Positions 3,397 to 19,379 of a stretch of DNA of 64,000 nucleotides are shown one piece after another. Both the position numbers and the translations under genes were made by a program. Positions within the stretch are counted from its first letter, which is position 1. Each line of letters begins with the position of its first letter. The DNA is from Escherichia coli (GTDB taxonomy: Bacteria; Pseudomonadota; Gammaproteobacteria; Enterobacterales; Enterobacteriaceae). Location of the stretch: NCBI RefSeq assembly GCF_024502345.1, contig NZ_JALDNN010000001.1; one strand, given 5' to 3'. The notes beneath the pieces are model-generated. The model was not told where the DNA came from. It searched no databases and saw nothing but the letters and a program-made list of their open reading frames with translations.

Positions 3397-4146
3397 ATGG
3401 CTACCTACCGACACGACCCTGATCTTGAATTTCTGCGCCACTGCCATCGTGACGATCTGGATTTACTGGTTTCTGTGCTTATCTGCGATCCGAAAGACGG
3501 ACTGGCACGCATCACGGAAACGCTGACCTATGATCCTCAGTATAAAAAACACAAGCCCAACCACCCGCGCTACTGGGATGCCATTGCCGCCGAGGTTCAG
3601 ACGTTTGGGGCGAACAGCTTTGCCACGCTGCTCCGCTGGGGTAAAGGGGTGCTGTACCGGGAAATTCTCACCGATGCCTGCGATAAAATGAAGGTGAACT
3701 ACAACAACAAATCCAGTGTTGAAACCATTGAAATGAATCTGCTGATGAAGATCCTGGAGAAAAGTCTTGAGAAGATGACGCCTGACCAGCTAAAGACCGT
3801 GGCGGAAGAATTGCAGACAGGCTACAGCAACCCCACGCCGGAGTTGCTGACCATGGCAATCCAGGCGGGGATAAAAACATCCGGGTTTGCGGCCTATCAG
3901 ATGGCACTTGTTGTCACAAATGGTGTGGCGAAAGCCCTGTTAGGCAGAGGGCTGACCGTTGCAGGAAATGCCATGCTGACGCGTACCATGGGCGCTTTTG
4001 CCGGTCCCGTGGGCTGGGTGCTCAGTTCTCTCTGGCTGCTGATTGATTTAGCCGGTCCCGCATACCGGGTGACGCTACCATCCTGCATTTTTATTGCCTA
4101 CATGCGCCAGAAGCATCTTTATTCACCTGAGAATACTGACGTTTAG
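3397..4146 (+). CDS. YaaW-like protein (DUF3944 N-terminus plus UPF0174-like region), hydrophobic C-terminus
   Basis: N-terminus YRHDPDLEFLRHCHRDDLDLLVSVL...DGLARITETLT resembles the DUF3944/YaaW pattern (from memory). The C-terminus has hydrophobic segments. Confidence 0.5.
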   Translation: MATYRHDPDLEFLRHCHRDDLDLLVSVLICDPKDGLARITETLTYDPQYKKHKPNHPRYWDAIAAEVQTFGANSFATLLRWGKGVLYREILTDACDKMKVNYNNKSSVETIEMNLLMKILEKSLEKMTPDQLKTVAEELQTGYSNPTPELLTMAIQAGIKTSGFAAYQMALVVTNGVAKALLGRGLTVAGNAMLTRTMGAFAGPVGWVLSSLWLLIDLAGPAYRVTLPSCIFIAYMRQKHLYSPENTDV

Positions 4147-4188
4147 CACTTACATTTAAGGTATTCAGACTTTAAAAAACTTCAGAGG

Positions 4189-4207
4189 GCGGACAAATCC
4201 TGTCCGC
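4189..4207. promoter_or_regulatory. palindrome GCGGACA-N5-TGTCCGC (candidate operator upstream of WYL regulator gene)
   Basis: Perfect 7-bp arms, 42 nt upstream of the ATG at 4249. Confidence 0.45.
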
Positions 4208-4248
4208 TACTGCTGGCATCATTTCCCGGCTAAATTCGGAAATGATGT

Positions 4249-4962
4249 ATGACGCTGATAACACAAGAAAACGAACATGACAGACTGGCAACCCGCCTTT
4301 CCATCATCCTGAGCCGTTTGTTTCAGGGTGAAAAGCTGCATATCGGGACGCTGGCAGAAGAATTTGGAGTGACGACGCGAACGCTGCGACGGGATTTCAA
4401 CGTCCGTCTGACCTACCTTGATATTGAACAGAGCAACGGCGTGTATCAGCTTGCCTCACATTACTTTCGTCGCCGCACGGAACGGGATATGAAGATACTG
4501 GCGAGGTTGCTGCATCTTGACCGTCTGTTACCCGCGATGGATGCCAAACTACTGAGCCTGATGCTTGACGGGGAACGTCCCTCGCCATACAGGATTATGC
4601 TACCGGAGCCGCGCCAGAAACCCACCCTTTTCGGTGATTTCAGCAGACTGACGCTCGCCATACTTAACCAGACCCAGGTGCGTATCAGAACCGACGAAAA
4701 CGTCAGCCATACCGTTCATCCCTACCGTCTGCTTTGCAGCCATGCGGAGTGGTTTCTTGCCGGATGTACGTCATCGGGCGTGTTCGTTATTTCCCTGTCC
4801 CGAATCAGGCTGGTTGAGGTATTACCGGATACAACGTTTGAGATCGATAACACACTCATTTCGCTGATTGAACAGTCTGACTTTATGGAAGCCTTACCCC
4901 ACATGAACATTATTCATCAGATAATGCATTACGGGAGTAAACAGACGAATAATCGTAATTAA
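4249..4962 (+). CDS. HTH plus WYL-domain transcriptional regulator (YfjR/YafY-like)
   Basis: N-terminus DRLATRLSIILSRLFQGEKLHIGTLAEEFGVTTRTLRRDF is a typical YafY-type HTH. Clear paralogue of the 47188-47916 product. Confidence 0.75.
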   Translation: MTLITQENEHDRLATRLSIILSRLFQGEKLHIGTLAEEFGVTTRTLRRDFNVRLTYLDIEQSNGVYQLASHYFRRRTERDMKILARLLHLDRLLPAMDAKLLSLMLDGERPSPYRIMLPEPRQKPTLFGDFSRLTLAILNQTQVRIRTDENVSHTVHPYRLLCSHAEWFLAGCTSSGVFVISLSRIRLVEVLPDTTFEIDNTLISLIEQSDFMEALPHMNIIHQIMHYGSKQTNNRN

Positions 4963-5002
4963 AATCACAACATATTATTAGTGATGATTAAATCACATTA
5001 AC

Positions 5003-5332
5003 ATGATAAGTGAGAAAGTTATGATTATCGATAAAGAATACGCACTTGTAAATGCAACAGCAAGACTTAACACTGACCTGAGGGATTATGAATATGAAAT
5101 AAACAACGCCGCCATCATAACATTTGGCAATGACCTCATTGAGGTAATCGTATATCAGTTCAGCTTTGTCATCAGCATCAGGGCAGAGGGTGAAAAAATA
5201 AAGCACGGCCTACTTGTTAACTTCGGTAAAAATATAGCAAGACAGGTTTCATCACTTTGTGCATCCGCAATGCGAGTCTACCCGAATGAAAAACACAAAC
5301 CGAGCCGTCAGCTTTTCCATTGCATAAATTAG
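5003..5332 (+). CDS. hypothetical protein (109 aa), AT-rich
   Basis: ORF-track ORF only, lying between the WYL regulator and the DUF262/DUF1524 gene. Confidence 0.3.
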   Translation: MISEKVMIIDKEYALVNATARLNTDLRDYEYEINNAAIITFGNDLIEVIVYQFSFVISIRAEGEKIKHGLLVNFGKNIARQVSSLCASAMRVYPNEKHKPSRQLFHCIN

Positions 5333-5393
5333 TTTGTGCAAAGACTGTACTACCGACACGCAATAAATTAAAATAGGCCAGCTAATATAACAT

Positions 5394-7271
5394 ATGAGGT
5401 TTATGATGGCTGGCCAGTATGAAAAAGCAATAACGATAAAACAAGCGATAGATTCAATTAATTTACGCCACTATCTTCTGCCTGCAATTCAGAGGAAGTT
5501 CGTCTGGAGCAGCAGTCAAATATGTTTGCTGTTTGATTCCATCATGCGAGACTACCCGATAAACTCTTTCATGATGTGGGATATCCGTAGTGCCAGTATT
5601 AAAAATGATTACAAATTCTATGAATTCCTGAAAGAATACTGTCAGCGATTTAATGAAGAAAACCCCTGCGTAGCAACAAATGCTGGATTTCATGATTTCA
5701 AGGCGGTGATTGATGGTCAGCAGCGTCTCACATCATTATATATTGGATTGTGTGGAACGTATGCGTATAAACAGCCCCGGGTGTGGTGGCCTTCGGCACA
5801 GGATGATCGCATCCTGCCGCCCAGAAAGCTTTACGTCGATTTAACAGCGCCACTTAATTCAGACGATGAGCTCATGATGAAGTATAACTTCAGGTTCCTG
5901 ACCGACAAGCAATACGCTGATTCACTTACAGACAACAAGCATCACTGGTTCTGCCTGCACGAAATATTCAAATACGAGCAACATGATTCGCCTGATGATA
6001 TTTTATTTAACGTTGTCGTACCAGAACTCGAAAAAAGAGGACTCATTTCCAGTGAATTTTCCAGAAAAACATTACTGAGACTTTATACAAAAATAAGAAC
6101 TGAGAACATCATCCACTACTTCAATGAGAGTAGTCAGGATATTGACCATGTGCTGGATGTTTTCATACGCACGAACAGCGGGGGGACAAAACTTGAGTTC
6201 TCCGACTTACTGATGTCAATAGCGGTAGCGCACTGGCAGGGTGATTTCAGAAGAGAACTGGATGAACTGACAAAAAACATTTATCAGAATAATGAAATGG
6301 GGTTTTATATTGAAAGAGACTGGTTCTTAAAAACCAGCCTGATGCTTATTGACTCTGACGTCCGGTTCAAAGTAAAAAACTTCACTTCAGAGGAGGTCGG
6401 TAAGATACAACAACAATGGTCTGAAATAAAATCCTGCATCAAGGAGACTTTTATTCTTATCAGGCGATTCGGCATCAATCCACAGTCTTTGATATCTAAA
6501 AATGCAGTCATTCCTGTGGTCTACTGGCTTTACAAAAAGCAAACCAGTGGACATCCATTATATACAACGATTAACCTCCTGAATAAAAACCACAATGAAC
6601 GCTCAGTAATTAGCCAGTGGTTTTACATGGTACTTCTGAAAGGGATCTTTGGAAGCCAGGCAGATGCGCTACTCACGAGTATCAGAGATGTAATGAAAAA
6701 TAGTCTTTCAGATATTCACTTTCCTCTTGAAAAGATTATTGACAGATATAAAGGCTCGAATAAAGACCTCAGATTTGACGACGAATACATCGAAAGCCTT
6801 CTCAATATCAGATATGGCGAAGGTCGTTGCCGCGCACTATTGCATCTTCTGTTCCCTGAAATGAATCCGACCGAGGTGTTTCATATTGATCACCTTCACC
6901 CAAGAAATCACTTCTCAAAGAAATATCTTGAAAAATTAGATTATGTTGCGAACTCACCAGAGAACCTCAGCTTTTATGAAAACCCGGAACACTGGGACAC
7001 CATACCTAATCTTCATTTACTGAATCATTCTCAGAATATAAGTAAACAGGATACTTCCCTGAAACAATGGCTATCTCAGCCATCAAACAACTATTCGCCA
7101 TCAATGCTGTTAGTTTCAGATGAAAATATTGAGTTCAGTCGCTTCCCGGAATTCTACAATGAACGAAGAAACGCCCTGAAGCAAAGACTACTGAATCGGG
7201 TATTTCTTACAACAAAAATAGATTCATCACCATCCACAATCGATACGGATGAAGAAATTCTCACCGACTGA
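5394..7271 (+). CDS. GmrSD-like DUF262/DUF1524 protein (putative Type IV modification-dependent nuclease)
   Basis: The N-terminal DUF262 hallmark DGQQRLTS is present. The C-terminus has a His-Me finger-like HIDHLHPRNHF...NLHLLNHSQNISK, as in DUF1524. Confidence 0.75.
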   Translation: MRFMMAGQYEKAITIKQAIDSINLRHYLLPAIQRKFVWSSSQICLLFDSIMRDYPINSFMMWDIRSASIKNDYKFYEFLKEYCQRFNEENPCVATNAGFHDFKAVIDGQQRLTSLYIGLCGTYAYKQPRVWWPSAQDDRILPPRKLYVDLTAPLNSDDELMMKYNFRFLTDKQYADSLTDNKHHWFCLHEIFKYEQHDSPDDILFNVVVPELEKRGLISSEFSRKTLLRLYTKIRTENIIHYFNESSQDIDHVLDVFIRTNSGGTKLEFSDLLMSIAVAHWQGDFRRELDELTKNIYQNNEMGFYIERDWFLKTSLMLIDSDVRFKVKNFTSEEVGKIQQQWSEIKSCIKETFILIRRFGINPQSLISKNAVIPVVYWLYKKQTSGHPLYTTINLLNKNHNERSVISQWFYMVLLKGIFGSQADALLTSIRDVMKNSLSDIHFPLEKIIDRYKGSNKDLRFDDEYIESLLNIRYGEGRCRALLHLLFPEMNPTEVFHIDHLHPRNHFSKKYLEKLDYVANSPENLSFYENPEHWDTIPNLHLLNHSQNISKQDTSLKQWLSQPSNNYSPSMLLVSDENIEFSRFPEFYNERRNALKQRLLNRVFLTTKIDSSPSTIDTDEEILTD

Positions 7272-7474: not shown

Positions 7475-9031
7475 ATGACAAGCCTTCAGCAGCGTGCAGA
7501 GCTACACCGTCAAATCTGGGCCATTGCCAATGATGTCAGAGGCTCCGTAGATGGGTGGGATTTTAAACAGTATGTACTCGGTGCACTTTTCTACCGCTTC
7601 ATCAGTGAGAATTTTTCCAGCTACATGGAAGCAGGGGATGAGAGCATACATTATGCAGCACTTGATGACAGCATCATTACCGATGACATCAAAGACGATG
7701 CCATCAGGACTAAAGGCTATTTCATCTACCCGAGCCAGCTGTTCTGCAACGTTGCCGCTAAAGCGAACACCAACGACAGGCTGAATGCTGATTTAAACAG
7801 TATCTTCGTCGCTATAGAAAGCTCTGCCTACGGCTACCCGTCAGAGGCCGACATCAAAGGCCTGTTCGCCGATTTCGATACGACCAGCAATCGACTGGGG
7901 AACACAGTTAAAGACAAAAACAGCCGTCTTGCCGCGGTTCTGAAAGGGGTTGAAGGGTTAAAACTTGGTGACTTCAACGAACATCAGATTGACCTGTTCG
8001 GTGATGCCTATGAGTTCCTGATTTCTAACTATGCCGCAAATGCCGGTAAGTCAGGCGGTGAGTTCTTTACACCGCAGCACGTCTCCAAGCTGATTGCACA
8101 ACTGGCTATGCACGGGCAGACCAGCGTTAACAAAATCTACGACCCGGCAGCGGGTTCCGGCTCACTGTTGTTGCAGGCGAAAAAACAGTTTGATAACCAC
8201 ATCATCGAAGAAGGCTTTTTCGGTCAGGAAATCAACCATACGACCTATAACCTGGCGCGTATGAACATGTTTTTGCACAATATCAACTACGACAAGTTTG
8301 ATATCAAGCTGGGTAATACACTGACTGAGCCGCACTTCAGAGATGAAAAACCGTTTGACGCCATCGTATCTAATCCACCGTATTCGGTGAAATGGATTGG
8401 CAGCGATGACCCGACGCTGATTAACGATGAACGTTTTGCCCCGGCTGGCGTTCTGGCCCCCAAATCCAAAGCTGACTTTGCGTTTGTATTACATGCACTG
8501 AACTATCTTTCTGCCAAAGGTCGTGCTGCGATTGTCTGCTTCCCGGGTATTTTTTACCGTGGCGGCGCAGAGCAGAAAATCCGTCAATATCTGGTCGACA
8601 ATAACTATGTCGAAACCGTGATTTCACTGGCACCGAACCTGTTCTTTGGCACCACCATTGCCGTCAATATTCTGGTGCTGTCTAAACATAAAACGGATAC
8701 CAAAGTTCAGTTTATTGATGCCAGCGAATTATTCAAAAAAGAGACTAACAACAATATCCTGACCGATGCCCATATCGAACAGATTATGCAGGTATTTGCC
8801 AGCAAGGAAGATGTTGCTCATCTGGCGAAATCTGTCGCGTTTGAGACCGTTGTCGCTAATGACTATAACCTGTCGGTGAGCTGCTATGTAGAAGCGAAAG
8901 ATAACCGCGAAATTATCAATATTGCTGAGCTAAATGCAGAGCTTAAAACTACGGTTAGCAAAATCGACCAGTTGCGTAAAGATATTGATGCGATTGTGGC
9001 TGAAATTGAAGGCTGCGAGGTGCAGAAATGA
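7475..9031 (+). CDS. hsdM: Type I (family IC) restriction-modification methyltransferase subunit
   Basis: Near-identical, by recall, to EcoR124I HsdM ([15 protein letters not shown]...). Motifs [10 protein letters not shown] and NPPY are present. Confidence 0.95.
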
Positions 9032-10200
9032 GCGAGTTGAGTTATCTGGAAAAATTGCTGGATGGGGTTGAGGTTGAGTGGAAATCATTGGGAGATGTTG
9101 TAAATTTTCAGCGCGGAAGGCGGCTCGTAAAATCTCAGTTAGAAACCAGAGGTAAATATGCGGTTTACCAAAACAGCATGACACCACTCGGTTACTATCA
9201 TGAGTATAATGTCGCAGCTCAATCTTCGTTCATTATCTGTGCGGGTGCAGCCGGTGAAATTGGTTATAGCGAAAATGAATTTTGGGCTGCCGACGATGTT
9301 CATTTCGCAATCACACCAGAATATATAAATGACAGGTTTTTGTTTCATTTTTTGTTGACGCAAAAGAATAAAATTTCAGGACAAGTACGCCGTGCCAGTA
9401 TTCCGCGTCTCTCAAAGTCAGTAATTGAAAAACTTGAATTCCCCATCCCCTGCCCGGATAATCCGGAAAAGTCCCTTGCCATCCAGTCTGAAATCGTTCG
9501 GATTCTGGATAAATTTACTGCACTTACCGCTGAGCTTACCGCTGAGCTTAACATGCGTAAAAAACAGTACAACTACTATCGCGACCAGTTGCTGAGTTTT
9601 GATGAGGGTGAGGTTGAGTGGAAGGCTTTGGAGGAAGTCTCAACTTTTGCTAATGGAAAGGGGCATGAAAAAGACATATCAGAAGACGGTAAATATATTG
9701 TTGTAAACTCTAAGTTTATATCTACCAATGGCGAAGTCGCCAAGTTATCAAACAAACAGCTATGCCCTCTTTTTAAAGACGATATTCTTTTGGTTATGAG
9801 TGACCTGCCCAATGGCAAAGCACTTTCAAAAACATTTATTGTTGATGAAGATCATAAATACACTTTAAACCAACGTATTGGTGGAATTACAGTAAAAAAC
9901 AGTAATGAATTACTCCCTAAGTTTTTGCACTATTTTTTAAATAGAACCCCGCAATTGCTGAAACATGACAATGGTGTTGATCAAACAAATTTGCGTAAAG
10001 GTCAAATACTTGAAGTAAAAATACCAATAATTTCACTCATCAAACAAGTTCAGATCGTTGAAACTCTTGATAAATTCGATACTTACACTAAGTCGATTTC
10101 AGAAGGCCTCCCGCGCGAAATCGAGCTGCGCCATAAACAGTACGAGTACTATCGTGATTTATTGTTCAGCTTCCCGAGACCAGAAACCGCCAGCAACTGA
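9028..10200 (+). CDS. hsdS: Type IC specificity subunit
   Basis: 4-nt overlap with hsdM. Conserved IC regions are present ([34 protein letters not shown]... and [22 protein letters not shown]), with two variable TRDs. Confidence 0.95.
9523..9550 (+). repeat. 12-bp tandem repeat CTTACCGCTGAG x2 (plus a 4-nt partial) encoding TAEL-TAEL in the hsdS central spacer
   Basis: Read directly: 9523-9534 and 9535-9546 are identical. Confidence 0.95.
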
Positions 10201-10316
10201 CGGACCATTGATACCGGCAGGGTTTGTTCTCACCCGCCCGGTATCAGGCTTTAAGAATGCCGGAAGATGCTTCTGATACCCTTCCGGAATTTGCCAGATG
10301 ACGCACAGGATGCACC

Positions 10317-13300
10317 ATGACACAACAGATACACACCATTGCTGAATCCAATAACTTTATCGTCCTTGATAAATACACCAAAGTTCTGGAGAACGGCGAC
10401 AGCTACCAGAGCGAATCGGATCTTGAGCGGGAACTGATTCAGGACCTTCTGAATCAGGGCTATGAATTTATATCCGTTAAGTCACCGACAGCGATGCTGG
10501 CGAATGCACGGGACCAGCTTCAGCATCTTAATGGTGTGGTGTTTAACGAAAGTGAATGGCGGCGCTTCGCAGAGCAGTATCTGGACAGCCCCAGTGACAG
10601 CAGCCTGGACAAAACTCGTAAAATCCATATCGACTATATCTGTGATTTCACGTTTGATGACGGTCGTCTGGAAAACATCTATCTGATAGATAAAAAGAAC
10701 CTGCTGCGCAATAAGGTGCAGGTCATTCAGCAGTTTGAACAGACCGGCTCACACGCTAACCGTTATGACGTCACCATTCTGGTTAACGGCCTGCCACTGG
10801 TGCAAATCGAACTCAAAAAGCGCGGCGTGGCTATTCGTGAAGCCTTTAACCAGATACACCGTTACAGCAAGGAAAGCTTTAACAGCGACAACTCCCTGTT
10901 TAAATACCTGCAACTGTTTGTGATATCTAACGGAACCGATACCCGGTACTTTGCCAGTACCACTAAGCGGGATAAAAACAGCTTTGATTTCACCATGAAC
11001 TGGGCGAAGTCGGATAACACTCTGATTAAGGACCTGAAGGACTTTACCGCCACCTTCTTCCAGAAACATACCCTGCTGAATGTTCTGTTTAATTACAGCG
11101 TGTTTGACAGCAGCCAGACTCTGCTCGTCATGCGCCCCTATCAGATTGCCGCCACTGAGCGAATCCTCTGGAAAATTAACAGCTCATTTAAAGCGAAGAA
11201 TTGGTCAAAACCCGAAAGCGGCGGGTTTATCTGGCATACCACCGGGTCAGGCAAAACCCTGACCAGTTTTAAGGCTGCACGACTGGCAACCGAACTGGAC
11301 TTTATAGACAAAGTCTTCTTCGTGGTCGACAGAAAAGACCTTGATTACCAGACAATGAAGGAGTATCAGCGCTTTTCTCCGGACAGCGTCAACGGTTCGG
11401 ATAATACAGCAGGCCTCAGAAGAAACCTGGATAAGGACGATAACAAAATCATCGTCACAACCATTCAGAAACTCAATAACCTGATGAAAGCCGAAGCTGA
11501 CCTGCCCGTCTATCAGCAGCAGGTAGTGTTTATCTTTGATGAGTGTCACCGCAGCCAGTTTGGTGAGGCCCAGAAAAACCTCAAAAAGAAATTCAGACGC
11601 TTTTATCAGTTTGGTTTTACCGGTACGCCTATTTTCCCGGAAAATGCACTGGGGGCAGAAACCACAACCAGCGTGTTCGGGCGTGAGTTACATTCTTACG
11701 TCATTACTGATGCGATTCGTGATGAAAAAGTACTGAAGTTTAAGGTGGACTATAACGATGTCCGCCCACAGTTTAAGTCTCTTGAAACGGAAACAGACGA
11801 GAAAAAACTCAGCGCGGCTGAAAACCAACAGGCATTTTTGCACCCCCTGCGTATCCAGGAAATAACGCAATACATTCTCAATAACTTCCGGCAGAAAACA
11901 CACCGAACCTTCCCGGGAGCTAAGGGCTTTAACGCCATGTTAGCAGTTAGCAGCGTGGACGCGGCGAAAGCTTATTACACGACGTTTAAAATGCTACAGG
12001 AAGAAGCAGAGAAGAAATCTGGCAGCTATAAATGCCTTCGGGTGGCAACCATCTTCTCCTTTGCTGCAAATGAAGAGCAAAGCGCCATTGGTGATATTAC
12101 TGACGAAAGCTTTGATACCAGTGCAATGAACAGCAGCGCGAAGGAATTCCTGGATTCAGCCATTGATGACTATAACAATCACTTTAAAACCAATTTCAGC
12201 ACCGACAGTAACGGTTTCCAGAACTACTACCGCAATTTAGCTCAACGAGTGAAAAATCAGGATATTGACCTTCTCATCGTGGTGGGAATGTTCTTGACTG
12301 GCTTTGATGCCCCGACGCTTAACACTCTTTTCGTTGACAAAAACCTCCGTTATCACGGCCTGATGCAGGCATTTTCCCGCACAAACCGTATCTATGATGC
12401 CACCAAAACCTTCGGCAATATCGTGACTTTCAGGGATCTGGAGCGTCCGACCATTGATGCCATCACACTATTTGGCGACAAAAACACCAAGAATGTGGTG
12501 CTGGAAAAAAGCTACGAAGAGTACATGCAGGGCTTTACCGATGCGGCAACCGGTGAGGCTAAACGAGGTTTTATGGCTGTTGTTTCGGAGCTGGAGCAGC
12601 GCTTCCCTGACCCTGCCAGTATCGACAGTGAAAAAGAGAAAAAAGCCTTCGTCAAACTGTTTGGTGAATATCTGCGGGCAGAAAACATCCTGCAAAACTA
12701 TGATGAATTTGCCACGCTGAAAGCCCTGCAGAAGGTTGATATTAGTGACCCGGAAGCGGTAGAAACCTTTAAAGCAGAGCACTATGTGGATGATGAAAAA
12801 TTTGCTGAATTACAAACCATTCGTCTCCCGGCAGAACGTAAAGTTCAGGACTATCGCTCAGCATACAATGATATCCGGGACTGGCAGCGACGCGAAAAAG
12901 CATCAAACGACAGGGATAAATCAACCACAGACTGGGATGACGTGGTGTTTGAAATTGACCTGCTGAAGTCGCAGGAAATTAACCTGGATTACATCCTTGG
13001 TCTGATTTTCGACCACAATCGTCAGAAAAAAGGTAAAGAAGCCCTGACTGAAGAGGTCAGACGCTTAATCCGCTCAAGTCTGGGCAACCGTGCCAAAGAA
13101 GGTCTGATTGTTGACTTTATTCAGCAAACTAACCTTGATGACATGCCGGACAAGGCCAGTATCATTGATGCATTCTTTACCTATGCTCAGCGTGAACAGC
13201 AACGGGAAGCAGAGGCGTTGATTAAGGAAGAAAACCTCAATGAAGAGGCTGCAAGGCGCTATATCCGCACATCACTAAAACGGGAGTATGCCACCGAAAA

Positions 13301-13433
13301 TGGGACGGAGCTAAATGAGACGCTACCAAAGCTCAGTCCGCTGAATCCTCAGTACAAAACGAAAAAGCAGACTGTATTCCAGAAAATTGGGGCATTTATC
13401 GAAAAATTTAAAGGGGTTGGAGGACACCTCTAG
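10317..13433 (+). CDS. hsdR: Type IC restriction endonuclease/helicase subunit
   Basis: 1038 aa with helicase motifs TGSGKT and DECHRSQ. Its length and sequence fit an EcoR124I-type HsdR. Confidence 0.95.
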
Positions 13434-13654
13434 ATGTCAGATAAAAGAACAATGCGCTACCGCAATTTATGGGTAAGATTGTATCTTTTAACCTGCATCA
13501 GACCTGTTATGATCGATGAGGCGCTGGTTAATGTTAATGCTAACTGGATGAGTTTTAATCGCTGATTCAGACAATTAGCGTCCAGAACTCACAGAAACCA
13601 GTGCTTGATTTTGGATGGTAAAGTGCTGAACGGACGTATCACAGGAGAATGCTT

Positions 13655-13993
13655 ATGAGCGTAACTATAAAAGACGATCGACTCCGTACCATCGCTACCT
13701 TTGACGGTAAAACCCTGAAAGACGACCGGCTCAGGACCATCGCAACGTTTGACGGTAAAACCCTGAAAGACGACCGGCTCAGAACCATCTCAACTTTTGA
13801 CGGTAAAACCCTGAAAGACGACCGACTCCGCACCATCGCTACCTTTGATGGCAAGACCCTGAAAGACGATCGACTCCGCACCATCGCAACATTTGATGGT
13901 AAAACACTTAAAGACGATCGACTCAGAACCATCGCGACAGTTAATGGTAATGTTAGTATTGTTGTTTTGGCGTTTGCTGCTCGGCTATTTTAG
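13655..13993 (+). CDS. repeat protein: six 16-aa KDDRLRTIATFDGKTL units plus a hydrophobic tail
   Basis: The ATG at 13655 follows AGGAG with a 7-nt spacer. The repeats are conserved at protein level despite synonymous DNA differences. Confidence 0.6.
   Translation: MSVTIKDDRLRTIATFDGKTLKDDRLRTIATFDGKTLKDDRLRTISTFDGKTLKDDRLRTIATFDGKTLKDDRLRTIATFDGKTLKDDRLRTIATVNGNVSIVVLAFAARLF
13670..13957 (+). repeat. 6 x 48-bp in-frame tandem repeat
   Basis: Read directly. The units differ mostly at third codon positions. Confidence 0.95.
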
Positions 13994-14270
13994 GGCTAAG
14001 AGCCTATCTCAACAGAGATTAATACTTTACCCAAAAGATATAATATCAGTATCTAAAAGCCTGCACCGTCTGATTTTTAGTCATTGAATCGCGAGAACGG
14101 GAGATAATTTCTCTTCTATGGGTATAGGCTCATAATGGTAGGATTCTGGTAGCTTCGAAACGCCGTATTTAAGCAATACTTAAGTCATGAAGAACCAAAC
14201 TTAAACATTTTTCTCAAGGTAAACCAGTAAAAAACTGTTAGTGCTGATGGATCGTTTGGGCTCTTTTAAA

Positions 14271-14319
14271 GGGATTGAAAATCCCCGTGTCCTTGGTTCG
14301 ATTCCGAGTCCGGGCACCA
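14271..14319 (+). tRNA. 3' fragment (49 nt) of tRNA-Phe(GAA): anticodon stem-loop to CCA. The 5' half is absent (att remnant, not a functional gene).
   Basis: GGGATTGAAAATCCCCGTGTCCTTGGTTCGATTCCGAGTCCGGGCACCA equals the pheV/pheU 3' part. The upstream 27 nt do not match GCCCGGATAGCTCAGTCGGTAGAGCAG. Confidence 0.9.
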
Positions 14320-14330
14320 AATTCATATCA

Positions 14331-14357
14331 ACGGACCTCCACGGAGGTCCGTTTTTC
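14331..14357 (+). terminator. rho-independent terminator after the tRNA fragment
   Basis: ACGGACCTCC..GGAGGTCCGT stem followed by TTTTCGTTT. Confidence 0.7.
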
Positions 14358-14516
14358 GTTTCAGAACGCCACAATTTAAGCGTTCTGCCTCCAAATCAAT
14401 TCTACCGAACTCAACCAGATTCCCCCCACATCAACCCCATTGTGTGGGTATAATTGCGGGTATACCCCAGTTCGACAGAATTTGTACCCTCTTTAACGCA
14501 TTCAGAAGGCTGAACT

Positions 14517-15782
14517 ATGGCACTGACTGACGCAAAAATCCGGGCTGCAAAGCCCACTGACAAGGCTTATAAACTCACTGACGGGGCCGGCATGTTCCTG
14601 CTGGTTCATCCTAATGGTTCCCGTTACTGGCGTCTCCGTTATCGTATTCTGGGTAAGGAGAAAACCCTGGCACTTGGTGTGTATCCGGAAGTTTCTCTCT
14701 CCGAAGCTCGTACAAAACGGGATGAGGCCCGAAAACTGATTTCGGAGGGGGTTGACCCTTGCGAACAGAAAAGAGCTAAAAAAGTAGTCCCTGATTTACA
14801 ACTCTCTTTTGAACATATTGCACGACGCTGGCATGCCAGTAATAAACAATGGGCACAATCACACAGCGATAAAGTACTCAAAAGCCTCGAGACACACGTT
14901 TTCCCCTTTATCGGCAACCGGGATATCACAACACTCAGTACCCCGGACCTGCTTATCCCTGTTCGTGCTGCAGAAGCTAAACAAATTTATGAAATCGCCA
15001 GTCGTCTGCAGCAAAGAATATCTGCTGTAATGCGTTATGCCGTACAGTCTGGCATCATCAGATATAACCCGGCTCTGGATATGGCTGGTGCATTGACCAC
15101 GGTAAAACGCCAGCATCGCCCTGCTCTGGATCTTTCACGCCTGCCTGAACTTCTGTCGCGTATTGACGGTTATAAAGGCCAGCCTGTCACCCGACTGGCA
15201 GTTATGCTGAATTTACTGGTTTTTATTCGTTCCAGTGAACTCAGATATGCCCGCTGGTCTGAAATTGATATTGACAATGCCATGTGGACTATTCCAGCCG
15301 AACGCGAACCTCTGCCAGGCGTAAAATTTTCATACCGGGGCTCCAAGATGCGAACACCACATCTTGTGCCACTCAGCCAACAGGCTGTAGCCATACTGGC
15401 AGAACTTCAGACATGGGCAGGTGAAAATGGTCTGATCTTTACGGGAGCACATGACCCACGTAAACCAATCAGTGAAAACACCGTAAATAAAGCCCTGAGG
15501 GTTATGGGGTATGACACAACCCAGGATGTCTGTGGTCATGGATTCCGGGCGATGGCATGTAGTGCATTAATAGAATCAGGTTTGTGGTCCCGCGATGCTG
15601 TGGAACGCCAGATGAGCCATCAGGAGCGTAATGGTGTACGTGCTGCGTATATCCATAAAGCCGAACATCTGGAAGAACGTCGACTTATGCTACAGTGGTG
15701 GGCCGATTTTCTGGATGCAAACAGAGAAAGATTTATCAGTCCATTTGAATATGCAAAGATTAATAATCCATTAAAACAATAA
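14517..15782 (+). CDS. int: P4-type tyrosine integrase (tRNA-Phe island integrase)
   Basis: N-terminus MALTDAKIRAAKPTDKAYKLTDGAGMFLLVHPNGSRYWRLRY is typical. The C-terminal catalytic region contains HGFR...Y. Confidence 0.9.
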   Translation: MALTDAKIRAAKPTDKAYKLTDGAGMFLLVHPNGSRYWRLRYRILGKEKTLALGVYPEVSLSEARTKRDEARKLISEGVDPCEQKRAKKVVPDLQLSFEHIARRWHASNKQWAQSHSDKVLKSLETHVFPFIGNRDITTLSTPDLLIPVRAAEAKQIYEIASRLQQRISAVMRYAVQSGIIRYNPALDMAGALTTVKRQHRPALDLSRLPELLSRIDGYKGQPVTRLAVMLNLLVFIRSSELRYARWSEIDIDNAMWTIPAEREPLPGVKFSYRGSKMRTPHLVPLSQQAVAILAELQTWAGENGLIFTGAHDPRKPISENTVNKALRVMGYDTTQDVCGHGFRAMACSALIESGLWSRDAVERQMSHQERNGVRAAYIHKAEHLEERRLMLQWWADFLDANRERFISPFEYAKINNPLKQ

Positions 15783-18503: not shown

Positions 18504-18937
18504 TTCAATTATCTCCGTTATTGCTCCGTTGCTGCAAGCAGTACTCAGTGCATTTTAAAACCCGCCATGCGATAGTCTCAATTGAATAAAATCGATCGAA
18601 TCGATAGATGATATCGATCGTCATTAACCAGAAATTTTTATCGTATTCAGTCAGCACAGATACAACAAATGCATGCCATGCAGACAGTCATACCCGGCAA
18701 CAACAGCAGATGGTTGCTGAGCAAGCAGGGAGTGAGGCTGAATCCCGGGGAAGAAAAAACCTGTAAAATTTGTTTATTCTGCCAGGAGATAAAAGTGACG
18801 TGTGTTCATGTAACACACCAGGGACGAAAGATGCATGGACTGACAGTTTGGGGGATATGATGCAACTACAGACCAAAGTGTGAATCAGTATGACCCGGGC
18901 CAGAGTTTGTGCGGTTTCTTTATATAAAAAAGCCCAC

Positions 18938-19379
18938 GGTAATGACTCCAACTTATTGATAGTGTTTTATGTTCAGATAATGCCCGATGACTTTGTCATG
19001 CAGCTCCACCGATTTTGAGAACGACAGCGACTTCCGTCCCAGCCGTGCCAGGTGCTGCCTCAGATTCAGGTTATGCCGCTCAATTCGCTGCGTATATCGC
19101 TTGCTGATTACGTGCAGCTTTCCCTTCAGGCAGGATTCATACAGCGGCCAGCCATCCGTCATCCATATCACCACGTCAAAGGGTGACAGCAGGCTCATAA
19201 GACGCCCCAGCGTCGCCATCGTGCGTTCACCGAATACGTGCGCAACAACCGTCTTCCGGAGCCTGTCATACGCGTAAAACAGCCAGCGCTGGCGCGATTT
19301 AGCCCCGACATAGCCCCACTGTTCGTCCATTTCCGCGCAGACGATGACGTCACTGCCCGGCTGTATGCGCGAGGTTACC
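18938..19379 (-). mobile_element. IS1 remnant (about 442 bp including one terminal IR)
   Basis: GGTAATGACTCCAACTTATTGATAGTG at 18938 is the IS1 end. Identity to IS1 stops at GAGGTTACC (19371-19379). Confidence 0.9.
18953..19330 (-). pseudogene. insB: IS1 insB portion, cut off from insA
   Basis: The translation [37 protein letters not shown]... is IS1 InsB. Confidence 0.9.

What the first reader, a model, noticed from the sequence alone, without database searches (positions are those of the whole stretch)
13655..13993. ORF made of six 48-bp repeats whose protein sequence is conserved while the DNA has diverged synonymously
Units 1-5 encode KDDRLRTIATFDGKTL, with one A-to-S change. Unit 6 degenerates into ...TVNGNVS and is followed by a hydrophobic tail IVVLAFAARLF. 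The DNA copies differ at many third positions (for example GAT CGA CTC CGT, GAC CGG CTC AGG, GAC CGA CTC CGC). That is the signature of selection on the peptide and argues against a recent slippage expansion. A good RBS (AGGAG, 7 nt) precedes the ATG. The alternating pattern (I-x-D-G-x-x-L-x-D) recalls small beta-hairpin repeat folds. I have no confident family assignment. The ORF sits at the extreme end of the island, next to the tRNA remnant and just after hsdR.
Basis: seen in the sequence. Interest (0 to 1): 0.6.

Follow-up and report, generated by a model that had tools for sequence, protein, structure and literature searches.

The report
Six-hairpin beta-flower gene in defence island
This is a real small gene of the recently named but functionally uncharacterised "beta-flower" family: six almost identical hairpins predicted to form a barrel around a greasy helix. 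It travels as a separate cargo gene beside different anti-phage systems, so it is a reasonable, untested candidate for a one-gene phage defence.

Summary
Window 13655-13993 (+) is a 112-aa ORF built from 48-bp units. Among units 1-5, 12 columns vary and only one changes an amino acid. The sense frame is far better conserved than any other frame, both between units and between alleles (omega 0.06-0.13).

The gene is an autonomous cassette of about 540 bp. The same hsdR lineage occurs with and without it. Close relatives sit next to a type V retron, a viperin-like radical SAM gene and Bunzi, so it is not a dedicated type I R-M subunit. A 4-fold beta-flower protein, Cernunnos, is an experimentally shown single-gene anti-phage system.

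Best guess (about 0.45): a stand-alone, membrane-acting defence protein. The family is known; the function is unproven.

The parts
13453..13994 (+). Beta-flower cassette: about 200 nt of upstream sequence, the ribosome-binding site and the ORF. It is the unit that is present or absent in otherwise homologous islands.
   Evidence: Islands with the same hsdR lineage but no beta-flower gene stop matching at window 13433-13452 (L043, L044). Several Enterobacter and E. coli islands stop matching at 13994, one base after the stop codon. Copies in other contexts share only 13644/13653-13991.
13643..13647 (+). Shine-Dalgarno AGGAG, 7 nt before the ATG
   Evidence: Read directly in the sequence. RefSeq uses the same start codon in the orthologue.
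13655..13993 (+). ORF of 112 aa (12.7 kDa, pI 10.1, no signal peptide), a PF21785 beta-flower protein
   Evidence: Pfam 43.3 bits against a cut-off of 38. The identical RefSeq protein WP_020838577.1 is named "5-fold beta-flower protein". Physico-chemical values.
13664..13951 (+). Six 16-residue hairpin units (residues 4-99): [T][IL]KDDRLRTIATFDGK five times, then TLKDDRLRTIATVNGN
   Evidence: Sequence. The AlphaFold2 model has 12 strands, two per unit.
13670..13957 (+).
   Evidence: TRF period 48, 5.5 copies. Unit table.
13952..13990 (+). C-terminal hydrophobic segment VSIVVLAFAARLF; predicted helix at residues 102-111, the presumed core plug of the barrel
   Evidence: Helix H102-111 in the model. 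Ala106 is nearly invariant across 33 relatives. The family is described as enclosing a C-terminal hydrophobic helix.
13639..13932 (-). Open antisense frame (97 aa), a by-product of the repeat and not a gene
   Evidence: Its wobble positions coincide with those of the sense frame, so it stays open. It carries 5 variable columns against 1 between units, and 7-12 amino-acid changes against 3 between alleles.
10317..13433 (+). hsdR (EcoR124-family type I restriction subunit), the upstream neighbour; context, not part of the cassette
14273..14319 (+). Exact 3' 47 nt of tRNA-Phe, the island end (attachment-site remnant). A second integrase gene follows at 14517-15782.
   Evidence: (0 mismatches, 0 expected by chance). 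The tRNA-Phe reference sequence was supplied from my own memory.

Best explanation
**Shown here**
- Window 13655-13993 is an evolutionarily conserved coding gene under purifying selection; expression was not measured. It encodes a 112-aa basic cytoplasmic protein of the beta-flower family (Pfam PF21785, Tubby clan).
- AlphaFold2 predicts six near-identical 16-residue beta-hairpins that close into a 12-stranded barrel, followed by a short hydrophobic C-terminal helix.
- Each hairpin sits in an equivalent environment, so every unit is under the same strong purifying selection.
- The array is re-homogenised from time to time by exchange between units. The units then drift apart at synonymous sites, which is what this allele shows.
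- The gene with its own ribosome-binding site is an autonomous cassette of about 540 bp. It fills a variable cargo slot at the end of a tRNA-Phe defence island.

**Inferred**
- It acts on its own, not as a subunit of the neighbouring type I R-M system.
- It is most likely a single-gene anti-phage (abortive-infection-type) protein, like the 4-fold beta-flower protein Cernunnos.
- Proposed mechanism: the ring of six F-D-G-K hairpin tips docks on the inner face of the membrane. On a phage cue the buried hydrophobic helix is exposed and disturbs the membrane, which stops growth of the infected cell.

My confidence in the identity and fold part is about 0.95. The 0.45 given applies to the defence function. 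The membrane mechanism is less certain still.
For: **Coding and selection**
- (see the observation check).
- Against a relative with 82% amino-acid identity (L014), synonymous sites are saturated (pS 0.86) while dN is 0.14.

**Family**
- Pfam PF21785 scores 43.3 bits against a cut-off of 38.
- All 33 aligned relatives hit PF21785. Ten also hit PF21784 and four also hit PF21786.
- RefSeq gives the same name. The fold description is in PMC10584680.

**Fold**
- AlphaFold2 with a 33-sequence alignment: pLDDT 86.7, 12 strands and helix 102-111.

**Autonomy**
- About 50 of 96 E. coli genomes with this hsdR lineage carry the gene. The rest have other cargo in the same slot.
- Homology to copies in other contexts is confined to the ORF.

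**Defence neighbourhood of the enterobacterial subfamily**
- The window island holds JukA, a WYL regulator, HEC-05 and a type I R-M system.
- A type V retron (RT_V E 2.6e-127, plus CSD_V) accompanies it on two different small-plasmid backbones.
- A viperin-like radical SAM gene (pVip model, E 1e-25) lies next to it on a 4773-bp Klebsiella plasmid.
- Bunzi BnzA and BnzB (E about 1e-200) lie 1.2 kb upstream in L014.
- The candidate defence gene PDC-S08 lies just downstream in L003.

**Precedent**
- A second screen recovered it again (10.64898/2026.03.17.712381).

**Membrane idea**
- Some relatives carry signal peptides or lipoprotein-like leaders. The fold therefore works on either side of the membrane.
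- Tubby-like relatives bind phosphoinositides or act as scramblases, as stated.
Against: - No expression or phenotype data exist for this gene or for any PF21785 member.
- PADLOC has no model that matches it.
- It does not itself hit PF21784, the Cernunnos domain, even at E up to 10. I could not obtain the Cernunnos sequence for a direct comparison.
- Distant relatives are not in defence contexts. In Succinatimonas the gene lies between dgkA and an alpha-2-macroglobulin gene. In Spirochaetes it lies next to regulators and housekeeping genes.
- Neighbourhood evidence on small plasmids and islands is weak by nature. The two retron contexts may share one ancestor.
- No promoter-like site was found upstream on the + strand, so transcription may depend on read-through from hsdR.
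- Alleles with 3 and 5 hairpins exist, so a fixed six-fold barrel is not obligatory.
Confidence: 0.45

Rival explanations
1. It is a general membrane- or lipid-binding (envelope) protein with no role in phage defence. It merely rides as cargo on mobile elements in Enterobacteriaceae.
For: - Distant family members lie in ordinary chromosomal contexts. In Succinatimonas the gene sits between diacylglycerol kinase and alpha-2-macroglobulin genes. Spirochaete copies sit next to MarR or PAS-domain regulators.
- Many relatives carry signal or lipoprotein-like leaders.
- The fold resembles lipid-binding Tubby and scramblase-like barrels.
Against: - In every independent enterobacterial context examined, a recognised defence system lies within about 1.5 kb.
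- The gene sits in a slot that holds alternative defence cargo in sister islands.
- A beta-flower protein has proven anti-phage activity.
Confidence: 0.3
2. It is an anti-defence or inter-element competition factor carried by islands and small plasmids, for example one that protects the element or excludes rivals, and not a host defence.
For: - It is found only on mobile elements in Enterobacteriaceae: tRNA-Phe islands and ColE1-type plasmids.
- It is small, autonomous and patchily distributed (about 1% of complete E. coli genomes).
Against: - It is basic (pI 10.1), whereas known anti-restriction DNA mimics are strongly acidic (my own knowledge).
- It was not found in the phage genome or viral contig collections.
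- No precedent exists for this fold in anti-defence.
Confidence: 0.1
3. It is an accessory or regulatory subunit of the adjacent EcoR124-family (type IC) restriction-modification system.
For: - It lies directly downstream of hsdR on the same strand in every E. coli, Enterobacter, Pseudocitrobacter, Pseudescherichia and Mixta chromosomal locus examined.
- No separate promoter was detected.
- It is retained while hsdS varies (35-40% identity).
Against: - About 46 of 96 E. coli genomes with the same hsdR lineage (97-98% identical 3' ends) lack it. Homology breaks within 19 nt of the hsdR stop codon.
- 1272 records carrying an ~81%-identical hsdR lineage have no such gene.
- It is kept where hsdR is destroyed by IS1.
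- Relatives sit next to retrons, a viperin-like gene and Bunzi with no R-M system nearby.
Confidence: 0.05
4. It is a component, perhaps the true effector, of type V retrons, and the copy in the window is an orphan.
For: - The order beta-flower, then about 570 bp, then RT, then CSD is conserved on two different plasmid backbones. Their RTs are 84% identical and their CSD proteins 64% identical.
- All 28 plasmids with an RT at least 80% identical are among the plasmids that carry a beta-flower gene.
Against: - Type V retron plasmids of Hafnia and Edwardsiella (RT 60-65% identical) have no beta-flower gene upstream.
- The systematic survey of retron-associated genes lists only the CSD protein for type V (PMC7736814).
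- The window and the other chromosomal copies have no retron.
Confidence: 0.05
5. It is not a gene. The 48-bp array is a DNA-level repeat, such as binding sites or a recombination relic, that happens to be open.
For: - It lies at the very end of an island next to an attachment-site remnant.
- Two frames are open across the array.
Against: - Variation is overwhelmingly synonymous in one frame only, and omega is 0.06-0.13.
- The Pfam match is above threshold, and the structure prediction is confident.
- There is a good ribosome-binding site.
- The ORF, but not its flanks, is conserved across unrelated contexts.
Confidence: 0.02

Closest known systems
Pfam PF21785 (Bflower_2, "5-fold beta-flower protein"), defined by Durairaj et al., Nature 2023 (PMC10584680)
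   Same: - It scores above the gathering threshold.
- It has tandem short beta-hairpin units with a conserved D-G turn and a C-terminal hydrophobic helix.
- RefSeq gives the identical protein this name.
   Different: - The predicted structure has six hairpins and 12 strands, not five and 10. "5-fold" is therefore a family label here and not a description of this protein.
- The units are 16 residues long and almost identical to one another.
- The family has no known function and no solved structure.
Cernunnos, a single-gene anti-phage cassette of the Vibrio cholerae chromosomal integron (Darracq et al., bioRxiv 10.1101/2024.07.02.601686)
   Same: - It is a small stand-alone protein with a beta-flower domain, carried on a mobile or variable locus.
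- The domain belongs to the same Pfam clan. Ten of 33 relatives of the window protein also match its domain, PF21784, weakly.
   Different: - Cernunnos carries the 4-fold domain PF21784, which the window protein does not hit.
- Its Escherichia homologues are reported mainly in prophages, whereas this gene is absent from the phage collections.
- Anti-phage activity is shown for Cernunnos and untested here. I had no sequence for a direct comparison.
Tubby C-terminal domain, LURP-one-related (DUF567) and phospholipid scramblase fold (Pfam clan CL0395)
   Same: - It is a 12-stranded closed barrel with a hydrophobic helix.
   Different: - Sequence identity is only 9-10%, and Foldseek finds nothing significant.
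- Strands and loops are much shorter.
- According to the published comparison the strand order is circularly permuted and the helix runs the other way.
- Lipid binding is untested.

Membership tests
Pfam PF21785 5-fold beta-flower | Whole-protein score above the curated gathering threshold | tested here: met
   43.3 bits against a cut-off of 38, E 3.7e-11, residues 4-102. All 33 aligned relatives also match.
Pfam PF21785 5-fold beta-flower | Tandem beta-hairpin "petals" with the semi-conserved [DNEQ]xxG motif at the hairpin tip | tested here: inconclusive
   Hairpins are predicted. The nearly invariant columns are an adjacent D-G (D81, G82) plus D87. The turn reads F-D-G-K, which does not fit [DNEQ]xxG literally.
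Pfam PF21785 5-fold beta-flower | Five hairpins forming a ten-stranded barrel | tested here: not met
Pfam PF21785 5-fold beta-flower | C-terminal hydrophobic helix enclosed by the barrel (stated for many members) | tested here: inconclusive
Tubby-like clan (CL0395) | 12-stranded closed beta-barrel with a hydrophobic helix | tested here: met
Tubby-like clan (CL0395) | Phosphoinositide or lipid binding, or membrane association | not testable with these tools
   Needs liposome binding or cell fractionation.
Cernunnos anti-phage system | [quoted passage not shown] | tested here: not met
   No PF21784 hit for the window protein at E up to 10. Ten of 33 relatives hit it weakly, best E 7e-5.
Cernunnos anti-phage system | Confers phage resistance when expressed alone | not testable with these tools
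   Shown for Cernunnos only.
Cernunnos anti-phage system | Direct sequence or profile similarity to the Cernunnos protein | not tested
Type I R-M (EcoR124 family) accessory gene | Co-occurs with the system whenever the system is present | tested here: not met
   About 50 of 96 genomes with this hsdR lineage have it. None of 1272 records with the ~81% lineage do. It also occurs without any R-M system nearby.
Type V retron component | Present with type V RT and CSD across diverged retrons | tested here: not met
   Present where the RT is at least 84% identical, absent from Hafnia and Edwardsiella plasmids with RTs 60-65% identical. Not listed by Mestre et al..

The most novel reading that the evidence does not exclude
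This 112-aa, six-fold pseudo-symmetric beta-flower protein would be a new single-gene anti-phage system, distinct from Cernunnos. Its barrel would hide a hydrophobic helix that is released into the membrane on infection. The concerted, lineage-specific replacement of the same residue in all hairpins (DDR to DDH, RTI to RTL, DDR to DRD) would record an arms race with a phage trigger or inhibitor. The natural 3-, 5- and 6-hairpin alleles would then be functional size variants of the barrel.
Probability: 0.25. Interest if true: 0.65.

Novelty: already known. Interest (0 to 1): 0.4.

Why it matters
The beta-flower fold was named in 2023 from predictions alone. It still has no solved structure, and I found no published function for PF21785.

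This gene gives a convenient E. coli and Enterobacter entry point. It is a 339-bp autonomous cassette whose close relatives sit beside four or five different defence systems, and a clan relative (Cernunnos) already has anti-phage activity. If it defends on its own, it would be among the smallest defence proteins known. It would also tie a Tubby-like barrel to bacterial immunity.

Separately, it is a rare natural protein with six almost identical structural units whose DNA has diverged to near saturation at silent sites. That makes it a clean case for studying how symmetric repeat proteins are maintained, through purifying selection plus occasional homogenisation.

As an annotation matter it is ordinary, because RefSeq already names it.

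Tried and rejected
- **Single-sequence AlphaFold2** gave an unusable model (pLDDT 48). Only the run with an alignment was informative.
- **The afdb50 fold library** was unavailable, so I could not list structural relatives among predicted proteins.
- **Foldseek against the PDB** found nothing significant. A profile search of PDB sequences found nothing.
- **Other family libraries.** NCBIfam gave no model and PADLOC gave none. The PHROGs hits are short repeat-driven fragments with no matched stretch, and I disregarded them. The Pfam side hits Cac1_C and Helicase_C are also repeat artefacts.
- **The word-indexed protein search** was saturated by the repeat. It returned mostly truncated 48-, 64- and 95-aa forms. 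The exact 112-aa protein is not in that collection.
- **Phage and viral collections.** The phage genomes gave only one weak hit, in a Gordonia phage. IMG/VR gave none. The alignment was too variable for a pattern scan.
- **Rfam.** On the locus it gave only a chance-level sroE hit (E 0.88). On the plasmids it gave only RNAI and a repBA pseudoknot, with no retron RNA family.
- **Promoter and terminator scan.** No + strand promoter lies before the ORF, and the only terminator-like hairpin is at 14330-14353. The transcription unit is therefore unresolved.
- **The Cernunnos sequence** was not in the held supplement.
- **Contexts that turned out not to be independent.** Plasmid hits L046, L047 and L048 are fragments or cointegrates of the L025-type and retron plasmids.
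- **Rejected readings.** The antisense ORF as the real gene, a tail-anchored membrane protein (the hydrophobic stretch has only 13 residues), and a DNA-mimic anti-restriction protein (pI 10.1).

Full report

Yes. AGGAG sits at 13643-13647, 7 nt before the ATG at 13655. An upstream in-frame ATG at 13649 is too close to it, and RefSeq uses the same 339-nt ORF in orthologues.

Tandem Repeats Finder reports a 48-bp period with 5.5 copies and 87% matches. Among the five full units (13670-13909), 12 columns vary. Ten are third codon positions, one is the first position of a CGN/AGR arginine switch, and one is a G>T that gives Ala>Ser in unit 3. Random single-base changes to the consensus unit would be synonymous 26% of the time. 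The observed figure is 14-15 of 16 variant states (P about 4e-7).

The sense frame has one variable amino-acid column of 16. The open antisense frame (13639-13932) has five. The other four frames have 10-12 and contain stops. Between alleles, 21-33 nucleotide differences cause 3 amino-acid changes in the sense frame, 7-12 in the antisense frame and 16-31 elsewhere. The antisense frame stays open in all alleles only because its wobble positions coincide with those of the sense frame.

**2. What family is it?**

The protein matches Pfam PF21785 (Bflower_2, "5-fold beta-flower protein") at 43.3 bits against a gathering score of 38. RefSeq annotates the identical protein, WP_020838577.1, under that name in E. 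coli.

The fold was named by Durairaj et al. (Nature 2023, PMC10584680). They describe shallow symmetric barrels of 8, 10 or 12 short strands made of hairpin "petals", many enclosing a C-terminal hydrophobic helix. They placed these families in the Tubby clan CL0395 on the basis of AlphaFold models only. I found no paper that gives PF21785 a function.

**3. Predicted structure**

AlphaFold2 without an alignment failed (pLDDT 48). With 33 relatives it gave pLDDT 86.7 and pTM 0.67, with twelve strands, two per 16-residue unit, and a helix at residues 102-111.

In the register [T][IL]KDDRLRTIATFDGK there are six complete units (residues 4-99) and a 13-residue tail, VSIVVLAFAARLF. This member is therefore six-fold in the model, despite the family name.

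The protein is basic (pI 10.1) and has no signal peptide. Some relatives in other phyla do have signal or lipoprotein-like leaders.

**4. How the repeats evolve**

Within this allele, the units differ at synonymous sites almost to saturation (mean pS 0.48, pairwise dS 0.2-1.1), with pN 0.03. Between E. coli alleles omega is 0.06-0.13. dS in this gene (0.16-0.36) is several times that of the adjacent hsdR 3' end (0.03-0.075). That fits shuffling of silent variants between units.

Amino-acid replacements are concerted within lineages:
- All units read RTL in a Klebsiella plasmid allele.
- All units read DDH in a metagenomic relative.
- All units read DRD in another relative.
- The DDH relative has three DNA-identical units.

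The array is therefore re-homogenised or re-expanded from time to time and then drifts at silent sites under strong purifying selection.

Unit number varies. At least 38 of the 40 listed E. coli copies have six units. Strain ET220 has five (a hybrid of units 3 and 4), and strain ES1 has three. Plasmid relatives have two to six.

**5. Genomic context**

About 50 of 5426 complete E. coli genomes carry the gene. In all the loci I inspected it lies about 220 bp after an EcoR124-family hsdR on the same strand, including one where hsdR is broken by IS1. The same hsdMSR and beta-flower block, with 96-98% protein identity and variable hsdS, is found in Enterobacter, Pseudocitrobacter, Pseudescherichia and Mixta.

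The link to hsdR is physical, not obligate:
- 96 E. coli genomes have this hsdR lineage, and about 46 of them lose homology within 19 nt of the hsdR stop codon. They carry other cargo there: IS66 plus a HEC-06-like DUF262 gene, or two unknown genes.
- 1272 records carry an ~81%-identical hsdR lineage without the gene.
- Several islands stop matching exactly one base after the ORF's stop codon.
- Copies in other contexts share only the ORF and its ribosome-binding site.

The mobile unit is therefore a cassette of about 540 bp (13453-13994). It sits in a variable slot just before the tRNA-Phe remnant (14273-14319).

**6. What sits next to relatives**

The window island is a defence island. It holds JukA (3397-4146), a WYL regulator (4249-4962), HEC-05 (5394-7271) and hsdMSR. 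Contexts of relatives are:
- **Type V retron.** A ~50%-identical paralogue lies on 4.0-4.1-kb E. coli, Salmonella and Shigella plasmids, about 570 bp upstream of a type V retron (RT_V E 2.6e-127, CSD_V E 3e-25). An ~80%-identical two-hairpin form lies in the same position on 4261-bp Klebsiella and Serratia plasmids with a different backbone.
- **Viperin-like gene.** A five-hairpin, 87%-identical form lies next to a viperin-like radical SAM gene on a 4773-bp Klebsiella plasmid.
- **Bunzi.** An 82%-identical six-hairpin form lies 1.2 kb after BnzA and BnzB.
- **PDC-S08.** This candidate defence gene follows the beta-flower gene in one E. coli island.
- **Not an obligate retron part.** Type V retron plasmids of Hafnia and Edwardsiella lack the gene, and the retron survey lists only the CSD partner.
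- **Distant relatives.** Copies in Succinatimonas and Spirochaetes lie in ordinary contexts.
- **Phages.** The gene is absent from the phage and viral collections.

**7. Link to known function**

Darracq et al. (bioRxiv 10.1101/2024.07.02.601686) tested 88 cassettes of the Vibrio cholerae chromosomal integron. They named 16 anti-phage systems. [quoted passage not shown] A second screen recovered Cernunnos among survivors of phage challenge (10.64898/2026.03.17.712381).

The window protein does not hit PF21784 itself. Ten of its 33 relatives do so weakly, which agrees with the clan relationship. I could not obtain the Cernunnos sequence.

**8. Most likely explanation, and rivals**

Shown: a real gene under selection, PF21785 membership, a confident 12-strand-plus-helix model, an autonomous cassette, and repeated adjacency to different defence systems.

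Inferred: it is a stand-alone defence protein (about 0.45). The mechanism I favour has the six basic and aromatic F-D-G-K hairpin tips docking on the inner membrane. The buried hydrophobic helix is then exposed on a phage cue, damages the membrane and halts growth. That mechanism rests only on analogy with Tubby and scramblase proteins and with abortive-infection effectors.

Rivals:
- A general lipid- or envelope-binding cargo protein with no defence role (0.3).
- An anti-defence or inter-element competition factor (0.1).
- An accessory of the type I R-M system (0.05, contradicted by distribution).
- A type V retron component (0.05, contradicted by Hafnia and Edwardsiella).
- Not a gene (0.02, contradicted by the substitution pattern).

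**9. Verdict**

The object is already catalogued: it belongs to a named Pfam family and is annotated in RefSeq. That makes it a member of a known but functionally dark family, not a new kind of element.

This analysis adds four points:
- The model is six-fold, not five-fold.
- The gene is a separable cassette and not part of the R-M system.
- Its enterobacterial relatives keep company with several different defence systems.
- A clan relative has proven anti-phage activity.

Interest is moderate (0.4). The hypothesis is cheap to test and the repeat evolution is neat, but nothing here is surprising in kind.

Noticed in passing
window 3397-7271: Upstream of the type I R-M genes the island carries a JukA-like gene (3397-4146, E 3.5e-72), a WYL-domain regulator (4249-4962) and a HEC-05/DUF262 gene (5394-7271, E 3.9e-231). 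I did not identify a JukB partner.
   Followed up: partly
window 9028-10317, compared with L001 7609-8928: In E. coli strain 21AR0133 an AAA-family ATPase gene lies between hsdS and hsdR. The window has no such gene there; hsdS ends at 10200 and hsdR starts at 10317.
   Followed up: no
window 14273-15782: The island ends at an exact 47-nt tRNA-Phe 3' remnant. A terminator-like hairpin (14330-14353) follows, and then a second integrase gene (14517-15782). Two islands therefore appear to sit in tandem at one tRNA-Phe site. ARAGORN finds no complete tRNA anywhere in the window.
   Followed up: partly
L005:2029-2211; L049:2319-2501; L050:853-1026 (-): An ORF of about 57-60 aa lies directly upstream of the reverse transcriptase in diverged type V retron plasmids of E. 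coli, Hafnia and Edwardsiella. The Hafnia and Edwardsiella copies have similar N-termini and a shared ...KEIGF[ML]EV... stretch; I did not read the E. coli copy. It could be a real micro-protein, or the retron non-coding RNA region read as an ORF.
   Followed up: no
L044:5559-7513; L043:5559-10409; L003:7578-9589: The slot after this hsdR lineage holds other cargo in sister islands. One has two unknown proteins (394 and 181 aa, no PADLOC hit). One has IS66 plus a HEC-06-like DUF262 gene. One has a PDC-S08 candidate gene. The two unknowns could be an undescribed defence pair.
   Followed up: partly
window 13434-13565: A 43-aa ORF starts immediately after the hsdR stop codon. A chance-level Rfam hit to sroE (E 0.88) overlaps it at 13449-13538. 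Both are probably meaningless.
   Followed up: no
window 18937-19379: A segment of about 442 bp matches sequences in E. coli loci L002 and L004 at 97-99% identity, in both orientations in L004. This suggests an insertion-sequence end or another repeated mobile fragment in the second island.
   Followed up: no
protein databases: The exact 112-aa protein is missing from the 15-billion-protein collection, which instead holds many 48-, 64- and 95-aa forms. Some short forms are real (strain ES1 in a chromosome-level assembly, and the 4261-bp plasmids). Others are probably repeat collapse or frameshifts in short-read assemblies.
   Followed up: partly
Gordonia phage Spooky MK937597.1 44707-44937 (-): This is the only hit in the phage genome collection: gene 76, a hypothetical protein, 30% identity over 77 residues, E 3e-4. 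It could be a distant beta-flower-like repeat protein in an actinophage.
   Followed up: no
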